DNA of 64,000 bases from Planctomycetota bacterium (GTDB taxonomy: Bacteria > Planctomycetota > MHYJ01 > JACQXL01): contig JAZDMB010000030.1 of NCBI GenBank assembly GCA_043801445.1, positions 78,178 to 142,177 on the forward strand. The letters run 5' to 3'. The notes beneath the pieces were generated by a model. That model saw only the letters and a program-made list of their open reading frames with translations. It had not been told where the DNA came from and searched no databases. How positions within the stretch are numbered: the stretch's first letter is position 1; every line of letters begins with the position of its first letter. The position numbers were made by a program, and so were the translations under genes. Shown in pieces: positions 4,421 through 51,478 of the stretch.

Positions 4421-5379
4421 AATCAGAGAAACAAATTATCTGGAAACATAAACACCTTTTGGGTCTGGAAGAGCTTACTTCCGCTGAAATCAATCATATC
4501 CTGGATACGGCCGAGTCATTCAAGGAAATCTCTACGCGGAATATCAAGAAGGTTCCCACGCTCAGAGGCAAGGTAGTCGTTAATATGTTTGTCGAGCCGA
4601 GCACGCGGACCAAGATGTCATTTTCTCTGGCTGCAAAAAGACTCAGTGCCGATATAATAGACTTCTCGCCTTCTACCAGCAGTCTTTCCAAAGGAGAAAC
4701 CCTGAAAGATACGGCTCGTAATATCGAAGCAATGGGCATTGATATCGTAATTATCAGGCATACCTCTCCGGGCGCTCCTCATATGTTATCGCGTATCATA
4801 GATGCCAGTGTTATTAATGCCGGCGACGGCGCTCATGAACATCCGACTCAGGGACTGCTGGACATTTTTACTATGCGCGAACAAAAAGGCAAAATAAAAG
4901 GGCTCAAGGTCGCGGTCGTGGGGGATATTCTGCATAGCCGTGTGGCAAGAAGCAATATCTGGGGGCTGACAAAACTCGGCGCCGAAGTCATTGCGGTCGG
5001 TCCGCCTACTTTAATACCGGTCCAGCTCCGTGATATGGGAATTAAGATTTCTTATAATCTCGATGAGGTTATACCCGAAGTGGATGTAATAAATATTTTA
5101 CGGATTCAACTGGAACGCCAGAGAAGTAAATTCTTTCCTACAGTCAGAGAATATGCCAGGCTATTCGGAATAAATCCGGAACGGCTCAAAAATGCAAAGA
5201 AAGATGTAATGATAATGCACCCCGGACCTATTAACCGCGGTGTGGAAATTACACCGGACATTGCCGATGGTAAACAATCAGTCATATTACGACAGGTAAC
5301 TAACGGATTATCGGTCCGTATGGCTGTCTTATACTTGGTTTCAGGTTCTTATGGAACAGATGAAACGGAACCATTGTAA
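4417..5379 (+). CDS. pyrB: aspartate carbamoyltransferase catalytic subunit
   Basis: Carbamoyl-phosphate binding motif '[10 protein letters not shown]' (STRTR), 'HPTQGLLD' (HPxQ), and 'HPGP' near the C-terminus. Confidence 0.9.
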
Positions 5380-5584
5380 AGGAGTGAAGTTAAGCCACCG
5401 ATTACACAGATTGAAAAGATAGTAAGCGGATTGAACTGATAATACGCCTATACGGGTGTTAAATCAGATTACTCTTTAATTAAAAATTAATCGGTGAAAT
5501 TCGGACATAAATATAAATTAAACAACAAATTACACTGATTTAATAACTTAATCTGTGTAATCTGTGGCTAAATGATTAATCATT

Positions 5585-6859
5585 ATGAATAGCATACTTA
5601 TAAAAAATGGGCATGTGATAGACCCGGCTAATAAGATAGATAAGATTACCGATGTTTTTATACAGGATGGCAAGATAAAATCTATCGGGAAACAATCCTT
5701 CAAAGCGGATAAAATCATAGATGCCAAGGGATTAATAGTCACGCCCGGATTGATAGATATGCATGTCCATTTACGCGAGCCCGGTAAAGAAGACGAAGAA
5801 ACCATTGCTTCGGGTTCAGCCGCTGCAATAAACGGCGGTTTTACCTCGGTTGCCTGTATGCCTAATACTGACCCGGCCATTGATAATGAAGCGTCAGCCG
5901 AATTTGTTTATCTTCAGGCAAAACGCGCCGGTCGCGCCAATGTCTTCCCTATCGGCGCCGTAACTAAAAACCGGAAGGGCGAAGAACTCTCCGAAATGGG
6001 GCAGTTATACCGTGGCGGGGCTGTCGGATTCTCAGATGACGGCGAACCGATTAAAAGCGCCGAAGTTATGCGCCGCGCCTTGGAATACAGCAAGATGTTC
6101 GATAAACCTATCATTGACCACTGTGAAGACATTGATTTAATCCGTGACGGCACTATGAATGAAGGCAATGTTTCTGTCTCGTTGGGATTGGTTGGAATGC
6201 CTTCGGTAGCAGAAGAAATAATGGTCTATCGGGATATAGCATTAGCCAAACTAACCGGCGGTAAATTACATATCGCCCATATCTCCACCAAAAAGGCAGT
6301 CGAACTCGTCCGTCAGGCGAAAAAAGAAGGTATAAAGATTACGGCTGAAGTTACTCCTCACCATCTTATCCTTACTGATGATTATATTAAATCGAGTAAA
6401 TTTAATACGAACTATAAGGTCAACCCGCCGTTAAGAACGAAAACCGATGTACAAGCCGTAAGAGAAGGACTTGCCGACGGGACAATAGATGTAATCGCCT
6501 CTGACCACGCGCCTCATTCAGAAGAGGAAAAGGATGTGGAATTCAATGTCGCGCCATTCGGAATTATCGGAATGGAATCATTTCTGGGAATAATTCTCAC
6601 GGAACTCGTTGCCAAGGATGTCATTACACTGCCGCAATTAATATCATCTCTGACTATCAATCCCGCCCGGATTTTAGGAATACCGAAAGGAACGCTTTCG
6701 GTTGGAGCCGACGCTGATATCACTATCATAGACCCCAAAAAAGAATGGGTAATTGACCCGGCGCAATTCAAATCCAAGAGTCGCAATTGTCCCTTTGCCA
6801 ACTGGAAGGTCAAAGGCAAAGCCGTAAAAGTCATTGTCGCTGGGCAGATTATCATTTAA
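5585..6859 (+). CDS. pyrC: dihydroorotase
   Basis: Amidohydrolase metal-binding 'DMHVHLREPG' and 'DHAPH' motifs. ~420 aa class I DHOase. Follows pyrB. Confidence 0.85.
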   Translation: MNSILIKNGHVIDPANKIDKITDVFIQDGKIKSIGKQSFKADKIIDAKGLIVTPGLIDMHVHLREPGKEDEETIASGSAAAINGGFTSVACMPNTDPAIDNEASAEFVYLQAKRAGRANVFPIGAVTKNRKGEELSEMGQLYRGGAVGFSDDGEPIKSAEVMRRALEYSKMFDKPIIDHCEDIDLIRDGTMNEGNVSVSLGLVGMPSVAEEIMVYRDIALAKLTGGKLHIAHISTKKAVELVRQAKKEGIKITAEVTPHHLILTDDYIKSSKFNTNYKVNPPLRTKTDVQAVREGLADGTIDVIASDHAPHSEEEKDVEFNVAPFGIIGMESFLGIILTELVAKDVITLPQLISSLTINPARILGIPKGTLSVGADADITIIDPKKEWVIDPAQFKSKSRNCPFANWKVKGKAVKVIVAGQIII

Positions 6860-12759: not shown

Positions 12760-12859
12760 TACTCGAGTACTTAGTACTAAAGTATCTTAGCGGCTAAATT
12801 CACCTGTGCCCGTAGGGTATACTTTCCTATACCGCGAGAAATCAGAAAGGAGAAATATT

Positions 12860-13834
12860 ATGAAAAACAGTGCAGCGATTCTGTTATTGGTAGTATTGGT
12901 AACTGTTTTTAATTATGGTTGCGGAAGCAGCAGCAGTGGTAGTTCTACCACCGCCGGGTCCACGACGGCCGTGGATGACTATGTTTGGGTGGCAAATTCT
13001 GGCGCTGTTACCCGCATTCTGAAATCAGATCCTGCTATCAGCACCACGATTACCGCGGGAGGTGGACGGGGAGTCGCAGTAGATGAAACCTATTGCTGGG
13101 CGGTAGAACAGGGCTCTAATTATATCATCCGCATCCTGAAATCAGACCCCGCTATCACGTCCACGATTGTGGTAGGAACTAACCCCTTTGGAATCGCGGT
13201 TGACGGGACCTATTGCTGGGTAGTAAATACTGGGTCTGCTAATGTCACCCGCATCCAGAAATCAAATACTGCTATTAGCGCCACGATTGGCGTGGGAAGT
13301 TCACCCCAGGACATTGCGGTAGACGCGACCTATTGCTGGGTGGCAAATCAGGGTAACGGCGCTAATAGTGTCACCCGCATCAAGAAATCAGACTTAACCA
13401 CGACCACGATTGCCGTAGGAACTAATCCCACCGGAATCGCGGTAGATGAGACCTATTGTTGGGTGGCAAATTATTATGATAATAATGTCAGCCGTATCTT
13501 GAAATCAAACCCGGCTATCAGCGACACGGTTACGGTGGAAAGTCGTCCAGTTGGAGTCGCGGTTGACGGAACCTATTGTTGGGTGGCAAATTATATTTCT
13601 TGCACTGTCACCCGCATCAAGAAATCAGACTTAACCACGTTCACGAGTCCGGTGGGAACTTCCCCTTGTGGAGTCGCGGTAGACGGAACCTATGTCTGGG
13701 TGACAAATTCTGTTGCTAATACTGTCACCCGTATCCTGAAATCAGACTTAAGCACAACCGCGATTGCGGTCGGAACTACTCCCGTATCGTTGGGCGATAT
13801 GACCGGCTATGCCTACGATAATTACGCCCGGTAG
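12860..13834 (+). CDS. YVTN-family beta-propeller repeat lipoprotein
   Basis: Lipobox 'NYGCGSSSSG'. About eight consecutive ~40-aa repeats 'TYCWVANxGxxxVTRIxKSDxxxxTTIxVGxxPxGIAVD' (YVTN 40-residue repeat). Confidence 0.65.
   Translation: MKNSAAILLLVVLVTVFNYGCGSSSSGSSTTAGSTTAVDDYVWVANSGAVTRILKSDPAISTTITAGGGRGVAVDETYCWAVEQGSNYIIRILKSDPAITSTIVVGTNPFGIAVDGTYCWVVNTGSANVTRIQKSNTAISATIGVGSSPQDIAVDATYCWVANQGNGANSVTRIKKSDLTTTTIAVGTNPTGIAVDETYCWVANYYDNNVSRILKSNPAISDTVTVESRPVGVAVDGTYCWVANYISCTVTRIKKSDLTTFTSPVGTSPCGVAVDGTYVWVTNSVANTVTRILKSDLSTTAIAVGTTPVSLGDMTGYAYDNYAR
12990..13790 (+). repeat. intragenic tandem repeat (~120 bp unit x ~7-8) encoding the YVTN propeller blades
   Basis: Recurring DNA blocks '...acctattgctgggtggcaaat...gtcacccgcatc(c/a)(a/t)gaaatcag...' visible at ~120-bp spacing. 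Confidence 0.7.
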
Positions 13835-32175: not shown

Positions 32176-32688
32176 TTACATCCTATGGGTATGACAGATA
32201 GCAATTGCCAGAGCATCTGAGATGTCATAAGGTTTGGGTATTGTATCTAAAGATAAAAGGTGTTTAACCATTTCAGCCACCTGGCTTTTATCAGCCCGTC
32301 CGTTGCCGGTGACACTCTTTTTCACTTCTGCAGGGCTATATTCATAGACAGGCGTTTTGGTTATAGCTGCAACGAGTAATGCGATGCCCCTTGCCTCGCC
32401 TATTTTTATGGTTGCTTGCACGTCTTGAGAATAAAATACTGTTTCTATGGCTATTTCATCAGGTTTGTGTTGTTTGATTATCTTGAATAGCTCTTGATAA
32501 CTGATGAGCAAACGGGATGCCAGATTACTAACATCAGATATTAACTTAAAATTCTTAATTTGAGATGTGGAATTTTTAACTGAAGTTTTGATTGCTCCAC
32601 AAGTAATAATTTTTAAGTTAGATTTCTCTGATTGAATAATTCCATAACCGATTATTAGCGTGCCAGGATCAATACCTAATATAATCAT
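32176..32688 (-). CDS. ruvC: crossover junction endodeoxyribonuclease RuvC
   Basis: 'MIILGIDPGTLIIGYGII' N-terminus and ~165 aa size are characteristic of RuvC. Confidence 0.85.
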   Translation of the reverse strand: MIILGIDPGTLIIGYGIIQSEKSNLKIITCGAIKTSVKNSTSQIKNFKLISDVSNLASRLLISYQELFKIIKQHKPDEIAIETVFYSQDVQATIKIGEARGIALLVAAITKTPVYEYSPAEVKKSVTGNGRADKSQVAEMVKHLLSLDTIPKPYDISDALAIAICHTHRM

Positions 32689-32691
32689 ATT

Positions 32692-33543
32692 TTACTCGGA
32701 AGATAATACTTCGCAAATTCGATCCAATCTAAATTGGCGGATTTCATCAGCTTGATGGCAATGTGCTGCCACATATGTACTGCCACGAAATGAAAATATA
32801 TTAAAAGGCGTTATCCATCTTTGAGATTCTTCGCCTTTATTATTGCGGTAGGTTATTTCAATCGGTATAGATTGTTCCATTGCTTTTTTTAAGATTATTT
32901 TGTCAGGTGGTATTTCTATTTTATCAAATATATAATCATTAAACTTTAATCCACCAGTAGAACGAAGAGCAATATCATTTATAGTCATTTTGGAATCTAA
33001 TCGATCAAGACACATCTTATAAAGTTTCATAACTACATACGAATCAGCCAGAGCGCGGTGATATCCGGATTGCTCATTGCTGCCTACAAATGCTTCGACG
33101 GGCGGACAGGCAATATTCAGATATTTGCCCAGAGTTGATAATTTATGATTTTCTACATCTTTGAAGCATATTCTCGCTAATTCACAGGTATCAATCAAAA
33201 GATTAGAAGGTGACTTGATTTTATAAAGAGCCGCTGATGCCATCAGAAAACTGACGTCAAATGATATATTATGTGCAATCAAAGGATTGTTATTGATAAA
33301 CTCTAAAAATTTAGATAATGCTTCTCTTTCAGACGGTGCATTTTTTACCATTTCGTCGGTAATGCCGTGTATTTCTATGACTTCCTGCGGAATAGAAATT
33401 GCCGGATTAATAAAGGTTTGAAAAGTATTAATAATTTCAGTATCCTTTTCAAGATTAAAACAAACAGCACCGATTTCTATTATCTTATCCTTAATCGGAT
33501 ATAAGCCCGTGGTCTCAAAATCAAATGCTACAATATTGGTCAT
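32692..33543 (-). CDS. DnaQ-like 3'-5' exonuclease (DEDDh family) with C-terminal extension
   Basis: Exo I motif 'IVAFDFETTGL', Exo II 'AHNISFDVSFL', Exo III 'YHRALADSY'. Confidence 0.7.
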   Translation of the reverse strand: MTNIVAFDFETTGLYPIKDKIIEIGAVCFNLEKDTEIINTFQTFINPAISIPQEVIEIHGITDEMVKNAPSEREALSKFLEFINNNPLIAHNISFDVSFLMASAALYKIKSPSNLLIDTCELARICFKDVENHKLSTLGKYLNIACPPVEAFVGSNEQSGYHRALADSYVVMKLYKMCLDRLDSKMTINDIALRSTGGLKFNDYIFDKIEIPPDKIILKKAMEQSIPIEITYRNNKGEESQRWITPFNIFSFRGSTYVAAHCHQADEIRQFRLDRICEVLSSE

Positions 33544-46345: not shown

Positions 46346-47530
46346 ATGATGAAAAGAGAAATCACGAACGCCCCGAAGTTATCGGGACGGAGTTTATCCC
46401 GCTGTTGGCGGGGTTGCGACTTCGCAAAACAATGGTTTCTTATTCTCCTGACCTGTCTTTTACTGGTTGCCTCTGTTGCCTACGCCGATAAAGAACAACC
46501 ATCTGATTTAACGCCTTCTATCAACACACCTATAACACCTACCGCTGTTTCCGGCATTCCCCTTAAGGTTCATTACATAGATGTTGGGCAGGCGGATTGT
46601 ATTCTTATCCAGATTCCAAATGGCAAAAATGTTCTCATTGACGCAGGTAATAGCTGTGACGCGGATAAAATAGTTTCTTATCTTCAACATCAAAAAGTTA
46701 AGAAATTAGATAACGTAATAGCCACACATCCGCACGCAGACCATATGGGCGCAATGGATACAATAATCAACAAATTTGATGTTGGTAAATTTATAATGCC
46801 TAATGCAACCTCTATTTCCAATACATTTAGTAAGGTAGTTACCACAAATATTGCATATATTGAAAAGCATCTTGAGATTACCTACGCCCATCCGGGGTTA
46901 CTAATAGACCTCAGTCCCAATATAACCGCACAAGTTATAGCGCCAATCTCTCCTACTTATCAAGGCAAGGACAAAGAAAATAATTATAGCATTGTTATTC
47001 ATTTGGAATTCGGCAAAACTTCCTTTTTATTTATGGGTGACGCGCTAGAAGAATCAGAAAATGAAATACTCAAATCCGGATTTGATATTAAGTCTGATGT
47101 ATTGAAAGTCGGCCATCACGGAAGCAAGACATCTACCGGCACAAGTTTTTTACGGAAAGTTCACCCATCGTATGCTGTTATTCCTGTCGGTAAAAACAAT
47201 ATATATGGACATCCTAAACAGATCACTTTAAAGAGACTTGAAGATGATAGGGTGCAAGTATTTAGAACAGACGAAAGCGGGACAATACTAATAGAATCCG
47301 ATGGCAAGGATTTAAAAGTTACTACTGAACGTAAACCAGAAAGCATACAAACAGGTTCTAAAAAAGCTGACGAAAACCCGGAAGAAGTTAAGATTTATGT
47401 TACAAGGACAGGGACAAAATACCACCGTGCCGACTGTGAATATTTAGCCAAGTCAATGATACCAATTTCGCTTAAGGAAGCCAAAAAGAGAGAGTATGAA
47501 CCTTGTAAGGTATGCAACCCTCCTAAGTAG
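46346..47530 (+). CDS. metallo-beta-lactamase fold protein (ComEC C-terminal domain-like)
   Basis: 'VHYIDVGQADCILIQ...VLIDAG', 'ATHPHADHMGA' (HxHxDH), 'KVGHHGS'. C-terminal 'YHRADCEY...CKVCNP' Cys-rich tail. Confidence 0.65.
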   Translation: MMKREITNAPKLSGRSLSRCWRGCDFAKQWFLILLTCLLLVASVAYADKEQPSDLTPSINTPITPTAVSGIPLKVHYIDVGQADCILIQIPNGKNVLIDAGNSCDADKIVSYLQHQKVKKLDNVIATHPHADHMGAMDTIINKFDVGKFIMPNATSISNTFSKVVTTNIAYIEKHLEITYAHPGLLIDLSPNITAQVIAPISPTYQGKDKENNYSIVIHLEFGKTSFLFMGDALEESENEILKSGFDIKSDVLKVGHHGSKTSTGTSFLRKVHPSYAVIPVGKNNIYGHPKQITLKRLEDDRVQVFRTDESGTILIESDGKDLKVTTERKPESIQTGSKKADENPEEVKIYVTRTGTKYHRADCEYLAKSMIPISLKEAKKREYEPCKVCNPPK

Positions 47531-47984
47531 GCAACGACTTGCGGGAGTCCCGACCGAACGTCGGGGGATGCCTGCCTGCGCTAAAGCTTCGGCGGGTAAT
47601 CCATACCTAATTATCCATCCGTAAAATCTGTTTTATCAGTTTAATCCACTTACAGATTCTTCGTATTTCTTACACACTAATATTAAATCCGTGTTCATCT
47701 GAGTTCATCTGTGTCCCATATTTCTTTGCGGTGAATCTTCTCTTAACCTACCTACTACCTACTTCATACTGCATACTACATACTATTAATTCGTGTCAAT
47801 CTTGTGAAATCTGTGGTTACGTTTCGGTTTTTATTTACCGTATTCCTCTTTCTTCTATCCGTAAGGATACCATAAGTAACGGGTTTGTTACTTATCCGGC
47901 AGGTATGAGAAATGAAGGTTTCATCTAACTTCTTGATTTGAAATGGATTAGAAAAAATAAAAAAATATGCAGAAATCCGAAAAT

Positions 47985-48250
47985 AGCACTCTCTGTTACT
48001 TATGGGGACCTATCCACTACGGGATTCTACCCTACCTACCTATGGTTATATGGGGTATATCCTATGGTTAGTAGGGATACTACCTATGGTTATATGGGGT
48101 ACTACCTATGGTTAGTAGGGATACCTCCTATGGTTATATGGGATACTACCTATGGTTATATGGTATACCTCTACTGGAGGGTACGGTATCCCCCCTGGGT
48201 AGGTAGGGTAGTATAGGGGGGAGATAGGGGGATGGGGGTATACCTAATTT
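47985..48250 (+). repeat. degenerate tandem array (~22-bp unit 'tacctatggttatatgggGatac', ~8 copies) ending in a G-run block
   Basis: Unit copies are visible directly. Ends '...ggggggagatagggggatgggggtatacc'. Read-through ORF 47938-48216 is periodic and judged non-coding. Confidence 0.75.
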
Positions 48251-48647
48251 TGGTAAAGTGATGCCTTAAAACTGGTTTATATCGTTGGATTAACTAAAGA
48301 CGGTGGGTGTCATTAAGCCAAGTGTATAGTATAAAGTATGAAGTAGGTAGTATGTAGAAGGTAGGAGAAGAGAAGACGTAAGATTTGCCACAGATTAAGC
48401 GGATTTGGCGGAATGCCTCAAATAAACGGTGAATTGTCTTGACAAAGGATTAGGGAATATGTATTAATTCACAATAGATATGGATAATTCGGGTGACGCT
48501 CTCCTACGCTCTTTGAGCGGAGTTTATCCCGCTCACAGCGGGGGAAGGGCAAGCCATACCGCATAGTTAAGATGTCCACGGAATTATGCGGGTGACAGCA
48601 TACTGAATTCCAATAATAAATATGTATTATGTATCCTGAATATAAAT

Positions 48648-49337
48648 ATGAAAAAAGTATTTAACTTTCTGATTGTTATTGGGTTATTTATTATCGCTTA
48701 TATATGCTGGAAGTATCATGACGAGATTCGTAAAGATTGGTATTTATACTCAACTCTTATCCTTGCAAGCATTGCTATCTTTCAAGACCCAATAAAACGA
48801 TGGTGGAATAAACCAATATTAGTTTTCACCCACAAGGAAACAAGCCCTTTCAGAAGAGAAAATACACTACTTATAGAACCTACTCTAACAACTTCTAAAG
48901 TTCTTAGTACCTATGAATGTTTTATGGTAGAAAACAATGGACGAGGTTCTGCTTTACAATGCCGATGCCAAATTCGTGAAGTAAGACAAAATGGTAAATC
49001 TTTTGGTTGTTACAGAGGATATCCTTTACATTGGGCCCGTAGGCCAGATGCAGAAATTGACCCATTGAAAGCTGAAAGACTTAATATTGGTCCAGGGGAA
49101 AGCGAGTTTCTAGATTTATGTTTCACCGCGTCTATAGATTCCGATATCCATTTAGCAAAATATCATACAATACCTATCGGTATTCCCGACTTCATTCCAT
49201 CTGGCGTATATGAGGTTAAATTAATATTTAGTGGTGATAATTTTAAACCGTATTTCATAGTCTTTGAGATTAAAAAAGATAACTCAGCGAATATCAATAG
49301 TATCAGTGTCAAACTAATAAAATACTGGCAAGGATAA
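48648..49337 (+). CDS. hypothetical membrane-anchored protein (ORFan) enclosed by inverted repeat arrays
   Basis: N-terminal TM helix (FNFLIVIGLFIIAYICW), Cys-containing soluble domain. No family recognised. Confidence 0.45.
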   Translation: MKKVFNFLIVIGLFIIAYICWKYHDEIRKDWYLYSTLILASIAIFQDPIKRWWNKPILVFTHKETSPFRRENTLLIEPTLTTSKVLSTYECFMVENNGRGSALQCRCQIREVRQNGKSFGCYRGYPLHWARRPDAEIDPLKAERLNIGPGESEFLDLCFTASIDSDIHLAKYHTIPIGIPDFIPSGVYEVKLIFSGDNFKPYFIVFEIKKDNSANINSISVKLIKYWQG

Positions 49338-49595
49338 CTTACTAATTCGGGGGGACACCCAGCACATAACGGAATTATGTGCTGGGCAGGCCCTAATTCA
49401 TAATTCTTAATTATTAAAACTCTATGCCTTCAGACACCTTTCTACATCCTGATTCCGGTAAGGATATCCGCACAGACGAGACATTAATTGAATTCTGAAG
49501 ACACCACACCTAATTCGCACTTATTCTGACCCCCAAACCCCCATTTTCGGCTATTTTCGTTATTACAAAACCTTATAAATCAACCACTTATACAG

Positions 49596-50100
49596 GCAGG
49601 GGGGGGTATACCCCCTCTACTGCCTCAGTAGAGGGCATCTACTGGATTATTAACCCATATCTCCTGAGGTAGTAGGTGGCGTCTGCTGAGGTATCTGACC
49701 ACCTCTCCTAAGATAGTAGACTGTATCTGCTGAGGTACCTGACCATCTCTTCTGAGATAGTAGACGGCATCTGCTGGATTGTCAACACCCCGCCACTGAG
49801 TTAGGGGGTGGTATCTGCCGGATTGGCAGCCCATGTCTCCTGAGATAGGGGATAGTATCTGCTGGATTATTAACACATCTCTCCTGAGGTAGTAGACGGT
49901 ATCCGGTGAGTTACCCGACCATATCCCCTGAGGTAGTAGATGGTATCTGCTGAGGTATCCAACCATATCCCCTGAGGTAGTAGATGGTATCTGCTGAGAT
50001 ATCCAACCATATCCCCTGAGATAGTAGATGGTATCTGCTGGATTGTCAACACCCCTCCACTGAGTTAGGGGGTAGTATCTGCTGAGTTACCTCCACCCTG
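49596..50100 (+). repeat. degenerate tandem array (~45-bp unit 'ccatatcccctgaggtagtagatggtatctgctgaggtatccaa', ~9 copies), inverted relative to the 47985-48250 array
   Basis: Unit contains 'ggtatccaaccatatcccctgaggtag', which resembles the reverse complement of the upstream unit ('ggtatccccatataaccataggtag'). Begins with the palindrome 'ggggggtataccccc'. Confidence 0.7.
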
Positions 50101-50127
50101 ATTAGAAATTTTGGTTGTTAGATTATG

Positions 50128-50269
50128 GTTCGGCAGGCAGTAGCAAGACACTGATGCAGTAGCAAGTTTTCTGGGCTTCTCAGCCAGTTAGAAGCGTCCT
50201 TTGAATGAGATGTAAGGCTTTCTGATAGGTTATTATTTTCTCTTGGTTTCGCTTCTAACGGGGCAGGCT
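50128..50269 (+). repeat. hairpin-forming dispersed element, copy 3
   Basis: 'ggcaggcagtagcaag...cagccagttagaagcg / cgcttctaacggggcaggc'. Lies between the tandem array and the gatC 3' end. Confidence 0.6.
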
Positions 50270-50296
50270 CCCGACCAGAATGACGAGGGATAATCA

Positions 50297-50623
50297 TTAT
50301 TCTATAATTCTCGGCACCTCGAAGAAATTACCTTTCCGTTTTGGCGCATTTTGGAGCGCTTTGTCAGGTGTCAATGAATTCTGATGTGCCTTATCATCCC
50401 GCCAAATACCCGCCTGACCGGCCGTCAGTTCGGGCAGGTTCAAGTGTTTTTCGTCCAAGGAATGTATTAATGGCTCGATATTAGTTACGTCTATTTCCTT
50501 AAGGCTGTCCACATAAGCGAGTATCTCTGACATGCCTTGTTTGAGTGATTCTTTGTCTTGAGGAGATACGGAAAGCCGCGCCAGTGAACAAAGATGCTCG
50601 ATAAGTTTATCGTCTATTTTCAT
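50297..50623 (-). CDS. gatC: aspartyl/glutamyl-tRNA amidotransferase subunit C
   Basis: 'MKIDDKLIEHLCSLARLSVSPQDKESL...ILAYVDSLKEIDVTNIEP...NFFEVPRIIE' matches GatC over its full length. Start taken at the internal Met. Confidence 0.75.
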   Translation of the reverse strand: MKIDDKLIEHLCSLARLSVSPQDKESLKQGMSEILAYVDSLKEIDVTNIEPLIHSLDEKHLNLPELTAGQAGIWRDDKAHQNSLTPDKALQNAPKRKGNFFEVPRIIE

Positions 50624-50802
50624 AGTGAATTTCCTTACTAACCACAAGATTTCACAAGATTAACACGAGAAAATAACCTTTATATAAAATCTGGTGAAAA
50701 TCTCGTGCTAATCTCGTGGTTTATATTTACCTACTACTACCATTCCCTCAAGCGGGACAAATTAGTGTCCCATTATTAAATTTAATAAATCTGTGTACTT
50801 AT

Positions 50803-51303: not shown

Positions 51304-51478
51304 AGTATTTATTAATAATTTATCGTATGGAATTCCAGAGATAACAACGGAATTAAACTAATTAAAGAGAACACGAATAAGACGAATACGGCGAATCTCG
51401 CGAATAATTCGTGCTATTCGTTCCATTCGTGTGATTCGTGTTGAAATCTGATAAATCCGTTAAATCCTGTTGTTTAAT

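What the first reader, a model, noticed from the sequence alone, without database searches (positions are those of the whole stretch)
47531..50296. ORFan membrane-protein cassette bracketed by inverted arrays of degenerate short tandem repeats
A 229-aa ORFan (48648-49337) sits between a ~22-bp-unit tandem array (47985-48250) and a ~45-bp-unit array (49626-50100). The 3' unit ('ggtatccaaccatatcccctgaggtag') looks like the reverse complement of the 5' unit ('ggtatccccatataaccataggtag'), so the two arrays appear to be degenerate inverted arrays. No recombinase, transposase or Cas gene is nearby, and the layout is not CRISPR (no spacers), not a standard IS and not a typical fim-type switch. Long inverted arrays around a single gene could support DNA inversion/phase variation, a large cruciform or stem-loop, replication slippage hypervariability, or a novel mobile cassette. 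The 2.7-kb block is otherwise non-coding, in a genome where intergenic space is normally tight.
Basis: seen in the sequence. Interest (0 to 1): 0.8.

Follow-up and report, generated by a model that had tools for sequence, protein, structure and literature searches.

The report
Defence-type gene between inverted satellite arrays
A small membrane-protein gene of a family usually found inside restriction-modification operons sits between two real, loosely inverted 22-bp repeat arrays, and these arrays belong to a class of hairpin-led non-coding satellites found in every sampled relative but one, not to a CRISPR array, insertion sequence or inversion switch.

Summary
A 22-bp array (core 48036-48167) and a 44-bp array made of two 22-bp half-units (49615-50126) flank a 229-aa gene. 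A shared 20-nt motif occurs only on + in the left array and only on - in the right one. The similarity is modest (16/20; p about 0.005-0.01).

The protein is not an ORFan: 24 clusters by word search and 411 by profile search. Distant homologs lie inside type I R-M operons or beside other R-M genes, so it is a candidate defence gene of unknown family (two TM helices plus a beta-sandwich).

The arrays are not specific to this gene. In about 139 kb sampled from six related Planctomycetota sources, five carry intergenic 21/22-bp arrays, nine in all, against none in 124 kb of other DNA. Unit sequences are unrelated between loci. Several arrays are preceded by a G-run/C-run hairpin and several lie where gene order breaks.

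In the closest relative, synteny stops exactly at the gatC stop codon. A different hairpin, array and gene follow.

No recombinase lies within about 20 kb, and array identity is too low for a switch or cruciform.

Best reading: a variable gene slot bounded by two diverged inverted copies of a lineage-specific satellite module. The function of the module is unproven.

The parts
47601..47643 (-). Possible relic of an insertion-sequence end
   Evidence: 86% identical over 43 nt to L146 7012-7054. That segment lies about 160 nt upstream of a DDE_Tnp_1 transposase gene. It is unique in the window and in all loci fetched.
47736..47786 (.). Left arm of a 51-nt inverted repeat, a (CTACATA)n-type heptamer microsatellite, that brackets the 5' array
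   Evidence: the repeat finder I1: arms 47736-47786 and 48326-48376, 82% complementary. TRF reports a 7-nt period at 47748-47785.
48036..48167 (+). 5' array core: six 22-nt units with a 44-nt superperiod
   Evidence: TRF period 22/44/66 with 82-89% matches. Units are listed in register. Autocorrelation is 0.76 at lag 22 and 0.89 at lag 44.
48168..48244 (+). Degenerate inner end of the 5' array: two or three variant units, G-runs, and the half-leader GGGGGTATACC (48234-48244)
   Evidence: 48159-48210 is 85% identical over 53 nt to the L001 array (8350-8300, opposite strand). GGTATACC lies at 48237, and an 11-mer GGTATACCCCC is shared with the 3' leader.
48326..48376 (.). Right arm of the 51-nt inverted repeat around the 5' array, a (TAGTATG)n heptamer microsatellite
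48648..49337 (+). Gene for a 229-aa protein with two N-terminal TM helices and an Ig-like beta-sandwich. It belongs to an uncharacterised family associated with R-M operons.
   Evidence: Translation. Homologs and alignment. AF2 model with pLDDT 87.5. No Pfam, PADLOC, PHROGs, NCBIfam or PDB match. Genomic contexts.
49358..49386 (+). Perfect 12-bp stem with a 5-nt loop, starting 21 nt after the stop codon. It resembles a terminator but has no T-tract.
   Evidence: Fold of 49340-49400: -16.9 kcal/mol, z = -6.2.
49594..49644 (+). Leader of the 3' array: the G8-TATA-C5 hairpin (49599-49615) with an extended stem, followed by a second hairpin CAGTAGA-GGGCA-TCTACTG
   Evidence: This is the only G{5,}N{2,12}C{5,} match in the 64 kb. 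Fold gives -16.1 kcal/mol, z = -4.3. Analogous hairpins precede the arrays in L001, L145 and L147.
49615..50126 (-). 3' array: about 10-11.6 units of 44 nt, each made of two 22-nt half-units. Its shared motif reads on the minus strand, so it is inverted relative to the 5' array.
   Evidence: Substitutions are spread unevenly along the unit (index of dispersion 1.92, p = 0.0002).
49919..50050 (-). Three consecutive, almost identical 44-nt units, indicating a recent local duplication
   Evidence: The units listed differ at 1-2 positions. The exact 25-mer CTGAGRTAGTAGANNGTATCTGCTG occurs three times at 44-nt spacing.
49757..49785 (-). Sigma-70-like hexamer pair TTGACA-17-TACTAT inside a variant unit. 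A second copy lies at 50021-50049.
   Evidence: scores both at 10 of 12. The total number of promoter-like sites in the region is not above chance (10 found, 9.2 expected), so this is only a lead.
50118..50297 (-). 59-aa ORF whose ATG overlaps the gatC stop. It marks the outer limit of the non-coding block. Whether it is a real gene is unknown.
   Evidence: ORF list. No Pfam hit. Synteny with L145 ends at 50296.

Best explanation
The block 47531-50296 is a variable accessory-gene slot in the core chromosome of an uncultivated Planctomycetota bacterium, with Brocadiia-labelled MAGs among the more distant relatives. It lies at a break in gene order just downstream of gatC.

The slot holds one exchanged gene. 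Its product is a membrane-anchored beta-sandwich protein. In other lineages, members of this uncharacterised family are embedded in type I restriction-modification operons or lie beside other R-M genes. The protein is therefore probably an anti-phage or abortive-infection accessory. This is inferred from context only.

The two arrays are diverged copies of one module, placed in inverted orientation with their hairpin ends facing the gene. The module is a stable G-run/C-run hairpin followed by tandem 21/22-bp units.

Modules of this kind are a trait of the lineage. They are intergenic, frequent, often at junctions between conserved and variable genes, and unrelated in unit sequence from locus to locus.

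Shown: the arrays turn over quickly by local duplication, as seen in three near-identical 44-nt units.

Inferred: the unit length equals two helical turns, and each unit has a conserved 12-17-nt core plus a variable linker of about 5 nt. These features suggest phased binding of a protein along one face of the DNA. The module could then act as a boundary or insulator, or as a recombination landing pad, at variable slots.

The structure is not CRISPR, not an IS, not an invertase switch and not a replicon.
For: Core chromosomal setting:
- Neighbouring genes include dnaG, rpoD, cysS, lytB, ruvA, surE, iPGM, gatC and GH57. No recombinase was found.

The gene family:
- 24 homolog clusters and 411 clusters at 50% identity, with invariant CRCQ, WAxRP, KAERLNIGxGExEF and SGDNFKP motifs.
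- Four distant homologs lie between hsdR and hsdS of type I R-M operons.
- One lies next to an MmeI-type R-M gene and one next to Tsp45I R-M genes.

The array class:
- Nine arrays of period 21/22 or 42/44 occur in 139 kb from the window and six related sources, about 65 per Mb (L144 has none). None occurs in 124 kb of other prokaryotic loci. All nine are intergenic.
- A published survey found that only 18 of 119 bacterial species exceed 4 satellites per Mb (PMC6749651).
- G{5,}N{2,12}C{5,} occurs exactly once each in the window, L001, L145 and L147. Each copy lies upstream of an array: 0-10 nt away in the window, L001 and L145, and about 60 nt away in L147.

Variable slot:
- The closest relative, L145, is 86-87% identical in DNA across the GH57 gene (73-77% across DUF4912 and gatC) and is collinear up to the gatC stop (window 50296). 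It then carries a different hairpin, a different 22-bp array and a different gene.
- L147 and L148 each have an array directly 3' of the orthologous EamA gene. The unit sequences are unrelated and the upstream genes differ.

Relationship between the arrays:
- The two window arrays are the only significantly related pair among 36 comparisons, and the match is in inverted orientation.
- The L001 array shares an 85%, 53-nt patch with the inner end of the 5' array.

Constraint within units:
- Substitutions are unevenly placed: L001 index of dispersion 3.57, p < 0.0002; 3' array p = 0.0002.

Recent duplication:
-.
Against: - No binding protein has been identified. Unit sequences differ even within one genome, so a single sequence-specific binder cannot explain every array.
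- Uneven substitution can be inflated by shared ancestry among the units.
- Only about 139 kb of the clade was sampled, and the sampled loci cluster around two neighbourhoods. The density estimate is therefore rough.
- The source genome was not in the genome collection that was scanned. Whether these unit sequences recur elsewhere in that genome is unknown.
- The polarity 'variable gene, hairpin, array, conserved gene' fits the window 3' array, L001, L147 and L148a, but not L145.
- The defence role of the protein rests on gene neighbourhood alone. PADLOC has no model for it.
- In the window the gene is not next to any R-M gene.
Confidence: 0.5

Rival explanations
1. The arrays are functionless minisatellites. 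Replication slippage or template switching next to stable G/C hairpins creates them, and a lineage with weak purging of non-coding DNA tolerates them. The inverted pair is then an accident of two such events, or one inverted duplication, beside an acquired gene.
For: - Unit sequences are unrelated between loci, even at the orthologous EamA site.
- Turnover is rapid and duplication recent.
- Identity within arrays ranges widely, from 62% to 96%.
- There is no Rfam hit and folding z-scores are weak.
- The satellite survey attributes many unique prokaryotic satellites to replication anomalies without special significance (PMC6749651).
Against: - The period stays at 21/22 nt across unrelated sequences.
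- Each unit has a conserved core and a hypervariable linker.
- The hairpin leader recurs in four genomes.
- An array persists at the same syntenic position in L147 and L148 even though its sequence has been replaced.
Confidence: 0.25
2. The block is a non-autonomous mobile cassette. Its two inverted arrays act as multi-site transposase-binding ends, as in Tn7 or Mu, whose ends carry several 22-bp sites, or as in foldback elements. A transposase encoded elsewhere in the genome would move it.
For: - The arrays are in inverted orientation with a shared motif.
- The 22-bp unit equals the length of TnsB and MuA binding sites (background knowledge).
- The block abuts the 3' end of a conserved gene, gatC, as Tn7 abuts glmS.
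- The closest homolog of the gene also lies 1.4 kb from a related array.
- Relics of IS or transposase HTH sequences lie nearby.
Against: - No transposase lies within about 20 kb.
- 6 and about 22 sites per end far exceed any known transposon end.
- The two ends match only 14-16 of 20 positions.
- Similar arrays occur singly at other loci, and each has a different unit sequence, so each would need its own transposase.
- No convincing flanking direct repeat was found. The best candidate, 47547-47569 against 50268-50291, is within chance.
- DNA homology with L001 covers the gene only, not the flanks.
Confidence: 0.1
3. The arrays act as RNA. One model is a type III toxin-antitoxin-like arrangement: promoter, tandem repeats, hairpin, toxin gene. 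Processed repeat RNA would then neutralise the membrane protein or its mRNA. Another model is antisense or sponge RNA made from promoters inside the 3' array.
For: - The gene family has a defence-type context.
- The order 5' array, G-rich hairpin region, gene on the + strand resembles toxI-terminator-toxN (background knowledge).
- A promoter-like site lies at 47938-47966 upstream of the 5' array. Two TTGACA-17-TACTAT sites lie on the minus strand of the 3' array and read towards the leader hairpin.
Against: - The AF2 model is two TM helices plus a beta-sandwich, not a ToxN/AbiQ-type RNase. There is no Pfam or PADLOC hit.
- The unit is 22 nt, against 34-36 nt in known type III antitoxins.
- About 400 nt separate the array from the gene.
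- Similar arrays lie next to housekeeping genes in relatives, and distant homologs of the gene lack arrays.
- RNA folding is barely better than for shuffled sequence (z = -1.7 and -2.1).
- The count of promoter-like sites is at chance level.
Confidence: 0.1
4. The inverted arrays support DNA inversion (phase variation) of the gene, or they extrude a cruciform.
For: The arrays are in inverted orientation around a single gene.
Against: - The longest complementary stretches are 20-27 nt at 70-81%. That is too short and too diverged for efficient homologous recombination or stable long-range pairing.
- There is no invertase or tyrosine or serine recombinase nearby.
- No asymmetric external promoter is evident.
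Confidence: 0.04

Closest known systems
Non-coding prokaryotic satellites / VNTR-type minisatellites (survey by Subirana and Messeguer 2019, PMC6749651; MIRU-type loci in mycobacteria, from background knowledge)
   Same: They are head-to-tail, non-coding, intergenic tandem repeats of tens of nucleotides. They are abundant only in particular lineages and turn over quickly in copy number.
   Different: - The period here is held at 21/22 nt while unit sequences differ from locus to locus.
- A G-run/C-run hairpin precedes at least four of the nine arrays.
- Arrays lie at junctions between conserved and variable genes.
- One locus has two copies in inverted orientation around a gene.
- The sampled density, about 65 per Mb, is far above the survey's 'rich' threshold of 4 per Mb.
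Modular intergenic mosaic repeats: pneumococcal BOX elements (boxA-boxB(n)-boxC) and E. coli BIME/REP clusters (background knowledge)
   Same: They are intergenic modules that combine a hairpin-forming part with a variable number of tandem internal units. They typically lie downstream of genes or between convergent genes.
   Different: - BOX and BIME copies share one sequence family across the genome. Here each array has its own unit sequence.
- BIME units are palindromic and alternate in orientation. These units are direct repeats without an internal palindrome.
- Multi-copy status in the source genome could not be tested.
Iteron or centromere arrays of plasmids (the P1 and F replicons, with rep flanked by iteron arrays; R6K 22-bp iterons; ParR/parC) (background knowledge)
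   Same: They are contiguous direct repeats of about 20-22 bp, that is two helical turns, with a conserved core and a variable spacer. Arrays lie on both sides of a single gene, and sequence specificity diverges quickly.
   Different: - The flanked gene encodes a membrane beta-sandwich protein, not a Rep or Par protein.
- The locus lies in the core chromosome.
- It matches no plasmid or phage record.
- Similar arrays occur at many chromosomal sites in relatives.
Type III toxin-antitoxin loci (ToxIN, AbiQ/antiQ) (background knowledge)
   Same: Tandem non-coding repeats and a hairpin lie upstream of a single defence-type gene.
   Different: - The repeat unit is 22 nt, not about 35 nt.
- The protein is not a ToxN-fold RNase.
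- A second, inverted array lies downstream.
- Arrays are also found away from such genes.
Accessory defence genes embedded in type I R-M operons (for example PrrC, and the embedded genes described for Vibrio cholerae VPI-2; PMC11411939 was listed but not read in detail)
   Same: Homologs of the 229-aa protein lie between hsdR and hsdS/hsdM in four independent lineages.
   Different: - The family matches no PADLOC, Pfam, PHROGs or NCBIfam model.
- In this window it stands alone, with no R-M genes.

Membership tests
CRISPR array | Identical repeats separated by unique spacers of similar length | tested here: not met
   The units abut head to tail at exactly 22 or 44 nt spacing, with no spacers.
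CRISPR array | cas genes nearby (usual, but not obligatory) | tested here: not met
   Pfam scans of the ORFs of at least 110 aa between about 26.7 and 63.8 kb (all but the 170-aa ORF at 32176-32688) found no Cas domains.
Type III toxin-antitoxin (ToxIN/AbiQ) | Toxin is a ToxN/AbiQ-fold endoribonuclease | tested here: not met
   The AF2 model shows two TM helices plus a beta-sandwich. The best PDB matches are Fn3-like and ApaG domains at E >= 2e-3. There is no Pfam or PADLOC hit.
Type III toxin-antitoxin (ToxIN/AbiQ) | Tandem repeats of about 34-36 nt directly upstream of the toxin gene, separated from it by a terminator | tested here: not met
   The unit is 22 nt. About 400 nt separate the array from the start codon, and no T-tract terminator was found.
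Iteron replicon (P1/F type) | The flanked gene encodes a Rep initiator with winged-helix domains | tested here: not met
   There is no Rep-family hit, and the fold is TM helices plus a beta-sandwich.
Iteron replicon (P1/F type) | Direct repeats of 17-22 bp in phase with the DNA helix | tested here: met
   Period 22 with a conserved core and a variable linker.
Iteron replicon (P1/F type) | Located on a plasmid, a phage or an integrated copy of one | tested here: not met
   The flanks are core chromosomal genes. blastn against plasmid and phage records found nothing, and viral contig scans found nothing.
Tn7/Mu-type transposon ends | Several 22-bp transposase-binding sites in each end, with the two ends inverted | tested here: inconclusive
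   The geometry fits. However, 6 and about 22 sites and 14-16/20 identity between the ends are far outside known examples.
Tn7/Mu-type transposon ends | Cognate DDE transposase genes inside the element, or target-site duplications at its edges | tested here: not met
   The block contains no transposase. No flanking direct repeat stands above chance.
Invertible DNA switch (fim/hin type) | Adjacent site-specific recombinase and short, well-matched inverted repeats | tested here: not met
   There is no recombinase within about 20 kb. The best inverted matches are 70-81% over 20-27 nt.
Non-coding prokaryotic satellite | Tandem head-to-tail repeats that are non-coding and intergenic | tested here: met
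   The periods 22 and 44 are not multiples of 3, and the ORFs overlapping the arrays have no family hits.
Non-coding prokaryotic satellite | Family of related satellites dispersed in the same genome | not testable with these tools
   The source genome is absent from the scanned genome collection. Within the 64 kb only this locus has them. Relatives carry the same architecture with unrelated unit sequences.
BOX/BIME-type intergenic mosaic element | Hairpin module plus a variable number of tandem internal units, located in intergenic DNA | tested here: met
   A hairpin leader followed by an array occurs in the window, L001, L145 and L147.
BOX/BIME-type intergenic mosaic element | Many copies of one sequence family per genome | tested here: not met
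   Unit sequences differ between all arrays compared, except the two in this window. Genome-wide copy number could not be tested.
R-M-embedded defence accessory gene | Recurrent placement inside or beside restriction-modification operons in unrelated lineages | tested here: met
   Four homologs lie between hsdR and hsdS. One lies beside Tsp45I genes and one beside an MmeI-type gene.
R-M-embedded defence accessory gene | Membership of a described defence family, or an experimentally shown anti-phage effect | tested here: not met
   There is no PADLOC, PHROGs, Pfam or NCBIfam hit. The phenotype cannot be tested here.

The most novel reading that the evidence does not exclude
The module 'G-run/C-run hairpin plus phased 21/22-bp array' is a previously undescribed functional element. 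It marks the borders of exchangeable gene slots in a Planctomycetota lineage. It would serve as a landing pad or end structure for a cassette-exchange mechanism with unknown enzymes, or it would be the source of 22-nt-periodic regulatory RNA. The window would then show a complete two-ended cassette carrying a new membrane defence effector.
Probability: 0.15. Interest if true: 0.85.

Novelty: new variant of a known kind. Interest (0 to 1): 0.5.

Why it matters
Non-coding satellites are rare in bacteria, and their role is an open question. This lineage may carry them at roughly ten times the density regarded as 'rich'. The arrays have a fixed two-helical-turn period, a recurrent hairpin leader and a preference for synteny breaks. 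Together these features offer a tractable system for asking whether such arrays organise, insulate or recombine accessory DNA.

Separately, the 229-aa family covers 411 clusters at 50% identity, lies repeatedly inside type I R-M operons, and is absent from the Pfam, NCBIfam, PHROGs and PADLOC-DB v2 libraries searched. It is a concrete candidate for a new membrane-acting anti-phage gene.

Tried and rejected
- Rfam at gathering threshold on the whole window and at E <= 1 on the block gave no hit. There are no tRNA genes.
- blastn of the block against plasmid and phage records gave no match.
- Three repeat patterns scanned against viral contigs gave 0 hits.
- The genome-collection scan with the shared 20-nt motif gave only nine single, evidently random hits.
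- The metagenome scan with three CTCAGNNGA motifs spaced 22 nt apart returned more than 120 unrelated 11/22-bp repeats and no true relative.
- A synteny test through the MBL/ComEC-like neighbour failed. Its only close homolog, at 83%, sits on a 1.5-kb contig.
- A 22-column profile comparison of the two arrays was only marginal, p about 0.06.
- An 11-nt sub-period was not found.
- Coding potential of the arrays was rejected. The periods are not multiples of 3, the ORFs are broken, and there are no family hits.
- Homologs of the L001 sigma and wHTH genes were sought in the window and not found.
- Inverted symmetry beyond the arrays was sought and none was significant.
- Larger fusion relatives of the protein gave no informative domains.
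- The afdb50 fold library was unavailable.


Full report
**1. Checking the observation**

The sequence at 47300-50600 contains two tandem arrays.

The 5' array has six clean 22-nt units at 48036-48167. CTACCTATGGTTATATGGGGTA alternates with a ...AGTAGGGATA variant, which gives a 44-nt superperiod. Degenerate units run on to about 48233.

The 3' array runs from 49615 to 50126, with copies spaced exactly 44 nt apart. Each 44-mer consists of two 22-nt half-units that share CTGAGGTA in the same orientation.

No other array of this kind occurs in the 64-kb window.

The evidence for an inverted relationship is as follows.
- The motif TACTACCTnnGGnnATATGG occurs only on the + strand in the 5' array and only on the - strand in the 3' array. 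It occurs nowhere else, and 0.03 matches are expected by chance.
- The best unit pairs match at 16 of 20 positions.
- A local alignment of the 5' array against the reverse complement of the 3' array scores 27. A column-permuted null gives 18.7 +/- 2.9, and 6 of 500 permutations reach 27. The same-strand score is also raised, at 24.
- A comparison of whole-array consensus sequences is marginal: 14/20, p about 0.07.
- Among 36 pairwise comparisons of nine arrays from related genomes, this is the only clearly significant pair (p about 0.005, inverted).
- Both arrays end, on the side facing the gene, with GGTATACCCCC.

The arrays are diverged inverted copies, not good inverted repeats.

**2. The gene**

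The 229-aa product has two N-terminal transmembrane helices and an Ig-like beta-sandwich. The AF2 model has pLDDT 87.5. Only weak, generic Fn3/ApaG-type matches were found in the PDB.

The protein has no Pfam, NCBIfam, PADLOC, PHROGs or PDB-sequence match.

It is not an ORFan.
- A word-index search found 24 clusters at 36-71% identity.
- A profile search of 1.84 billion representatives found 411 clusters at E <= 1e-3.
- The alignment has many invariant residues.

Gene neighbourhoods are informative.
- P0005, P0006, P0007 and P0011 lie between hsdR and hsdS/hsdM of type I R-M operons.
- P0004 lies beside an MmeI-type enzyme gene.
- P0003 lies among small genes that include an excisionase-like HTH_17 gene.
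- P0002, the closest homolog at 71% aa, follows Tsp45I R-M genes.

Placement inside R-M operons is the classic signature of accessory defence genes (established knowledge; for example PrrC). A defence role is therefore inferred, not shown.

**3. Are the arrays tied to the gene?**

Distant homolog loci have no arrays.

The closest one, L001/L002, has an 18-unit 22-bp array (GGATACCATACCCATCCATAGT, 85% matches). It lies 1.4 kb downstream of the gene, after a divergent ECF-sigma-like gene and a zf-HC2/DUF2582 winged-helix gene.

DNA homology between the window and L001 covers only two segments.
- The gene itself: 78% identity over 48647-49341.
- A 53-nt patch at 85% identity between the inner end of the 5' array and the L001 array, on opposite strands.

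The arrays therefore share some ancestry. The gene and the arrays are not, however, one conserved block.

**4. The wider picture from relatives**

Synteny through the MBL/ComEC-like neighbour failed for lack of close relatives. Homologs of the GH57 gene gave five related loci instead.

- **L145.** This locus is 86-87% identical in DNA across the GH57 gene and 73-77% across DUF4912 and gatC. It is collinear through GH57, DUF4912 and gatC up to the gatC stop codon (window 50296). It then diverges completely. It carries a G8...C6 hairpin, a 3.4-unit 22-bp array with an unrelated unit, and a different convergent gene.
- **L146.** It has a 21-bp array of 7-8 units between two unknown genes, next to GC-rich hairpins.
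- **L147.** It has the hairpin GGGGGGTAGGGTATCCCCCC followed by a 22/44-bp array about 310 nt long (5298-5611), directly 3' of EamA.
- **L148.** It has a 42-bp array at the same syntenic spot with an unrelated unit and different upstream genes. Homology to L147 starts exactly at the EamA stop. L148 also has three adjacent 21-bp arrays after a UPF0102 gene.
- **L144.** No array of this kind was found in its 6.8 kb.

In all, nine such arrays occur in 139 kb of this clade, about 65 per Mb. Every one is intergenic.

The pattern G{5,}N{2,12}C{5,} occurs exactly once each in the window, L001, L145 and L147. Each copy lies upstream of an array: 0-10 nt away in the window, L001 and L145, and about 60 nt away in L147. 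It folds into a stable stem.

A published survey of 119 bacterial species found more than 4 satellites per Mb in only 18 species. Dispersed non-coding satellite families were found in very few (PMC6749651).

I found no description of this array class in three full-text searches.

**5. Signs of constraint and of turnover**

Substitutions are not spread evenly along the units.
- In L001, a core of 12-17 nt is nearly invariant, while about 5 positions take many different states (index of dispersion 3.57, p < 0.0002).
- The 3' array of the window shows the same tendency (p = 0.0002).

Three consecutive 44-nt units at 49919-50050 are almost identical, while the others are 65-80% alike. This indicates recent local duplication.

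The constant 21/22-nt period equals two helical turns. Together with the conserved core and variable linker, it is the pattern expected for phased protein binding on one face of the DNA, as in iterons and centromere arrays (background knowledge).

Because unit sequences differ between arrays, no single sequence-specific binder can explain them all. This step is an inference and may be wrong.

**6. What it is not**

- **CRISPR:** there are no spacers.
- **A known RNA family:** no Rfam match, and RNA folding is barely better than for shuffled sequence.
- **Plasmid, phage or virus DNA:** no match.
- **A replicon or a transposon with its own enzyme:** none of the scanned ORFs from 26.7 to 63.8 kb is a recombinase, transposase or Rep gene. 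The neighbours are core genes such as dnaG, rpoD, cysS, lytB, ruvA, surE and gatC.
- **An invertase switch or cruciform:** the best complementary stretches are 20-27 nt at 70-81%.
- **A ToxIN-type system:** the protein fold, the unit length and the spacing all fail the test.

**7. Most likely explanation**

The site downstream of gatC is a variable slot. Here it holds a horizontally exchanged candidate defence gene for a membrane protein. Two diverged copies of the lineage's hairpin-plus-array satellite module bound the slot, in inverted orientation with their hairpins facing the gene.

In four of the five modules with a recognisable hairpin, the order is variable gene, hairpin, array, conserved gene. 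These four are the window 3' array, L001, L147 and L148a. L145 is the exception.

I put the probability that this overall description is right at about 0.5. The sub-claim that the arrays bind protein in phase is the weakest part.

The rivals, in order of probability, are:
- functionless minisatellites (0.25);
- a non-autonomous cassette with multi-site ends (0.1);
- an RNA-level role (0.1);
- an inversion switch or cruciform (0.04).

**8. Novelty and score**

The gene family and the array class both appear to be undescribed. Each is, however, a variant of a known kind of thing: a defence-island accessory gene, and prokaryotic non-coding satellites or intergenic mosaic repeats.

Interest is 0.5. 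It would rise sharply if whole-genome scans confirm that the modules mark island borders, or if a binding protein or processed RNA is found.

Noticed in passing
window 49665-50027 (+): The 3' array unit begins TGAGGTAGTAG, with 4 exact copies and 2 one-mismatch copies on + (a seventh, one-mismatch match at 49617-49627 lies on - in the leader hairpin). From memory, this equals the first 11 nt of the animal microRNA let-7, and the 22-nt unit matches let-7a at 16/22. It is almost certainly a coincidence, and there was no Rfam hit.
   Followed up: partly
window 47601-47643: A 43-nt segment is 86% identical to L146 7012-7054. That sequence lies just upstream of a DDE_Tnp_1 transposase gene in a related genome. 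It may be the relic of an IS end inside the block.
   Followed up: partly
window 47736-47786 and 48326-48376: Heptamer microsatellites, (CTACATA)n and its complement, form a 51-nt, 82% inverted repeat that brackets the 5' array. The 5' module is therefore itself nested in an inverted structure. Its significance is unknown.
   Followed up: partly
window 50643-50718 and 51373-51440; L147 5800-5860: Other intergenic regions carry small inverted mini-arrays of 9-11-nt repeats: CACAAGATT x3 facing AATCTCGTG x3, and ACGAATA x4 facing ATTCGTG x4. Similar CACGAAT/ATTCGTG clusters occur in a related genome. This looks like a lineage-wide intergenic motif system.
   Followed up: no
window 48195-48244 (+): The inner end of the 5' array has closely spaced G-runs (GGG, GGG, GGGGGG, GGGGG, GGGGG) that could form a G-quadruplex.
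   Followed up: no
window 50118-50297 (-): A 59-aa ORF starts at an ATG that overlaps the gatC stop codon and ends at the outer edge of the 3' array. It has no family hit, and whether it is a real gene is unknown.
   Followed up: partly
window 13070-13782: A 117-123-bp tandem repeat (about 5.7 copies, 69-74% matches) lies inside the ORF at 12806-13834. It presumably encodes a repeat-domain protein.
   Followed up: no
window 32692-33543 (-): This gene encodes a fusion of an RNase_T-type exonuclease with a WYL domain. WYL domains often regulate defence systems.
   Followed up: no
window 46346-47530 (+): The MBL-fold/ComEC-like neighbour has one 83% homolog on a tiny contig. Its next-best hits are 47-52% identical; the few that carry an organism name are mostly Firmicutes, and most are unnamed metagenome sequences. 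It may itself be acquired DNA, in which case the variable region would extend further left.
   Followed up: partly
L001 6867-8502: In the locus of the closest homolog, the 22-bp array starts 30 nt after the stop of a zf-HC2 plus DUF2582 winged-helix gene, which is paired with a divergent ECF-sigma-like gene. The winged-helix protein is a candidate array binder. Neither gene has a counterpart in the window.
   Followed up: partly
L145 4290-4377; L147 4800-5072: A transposase-type HTH lies beside the hairpin leader in two relatives. In L145 it is a relic reading AKRLGQSYRTVQRWVSKYRKSGI. In L147 it is an HTH_23/HTH_28 gene.
   Followed up: partly
L148 17149-17686: Three different 21-bp arrays lie back to back, with 2.4, 11.8 and 6.9 units. 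They sit between a UPF0102/NERD gene and a HepT/MNT toxin-antitoxin pair.
   Followed up: no
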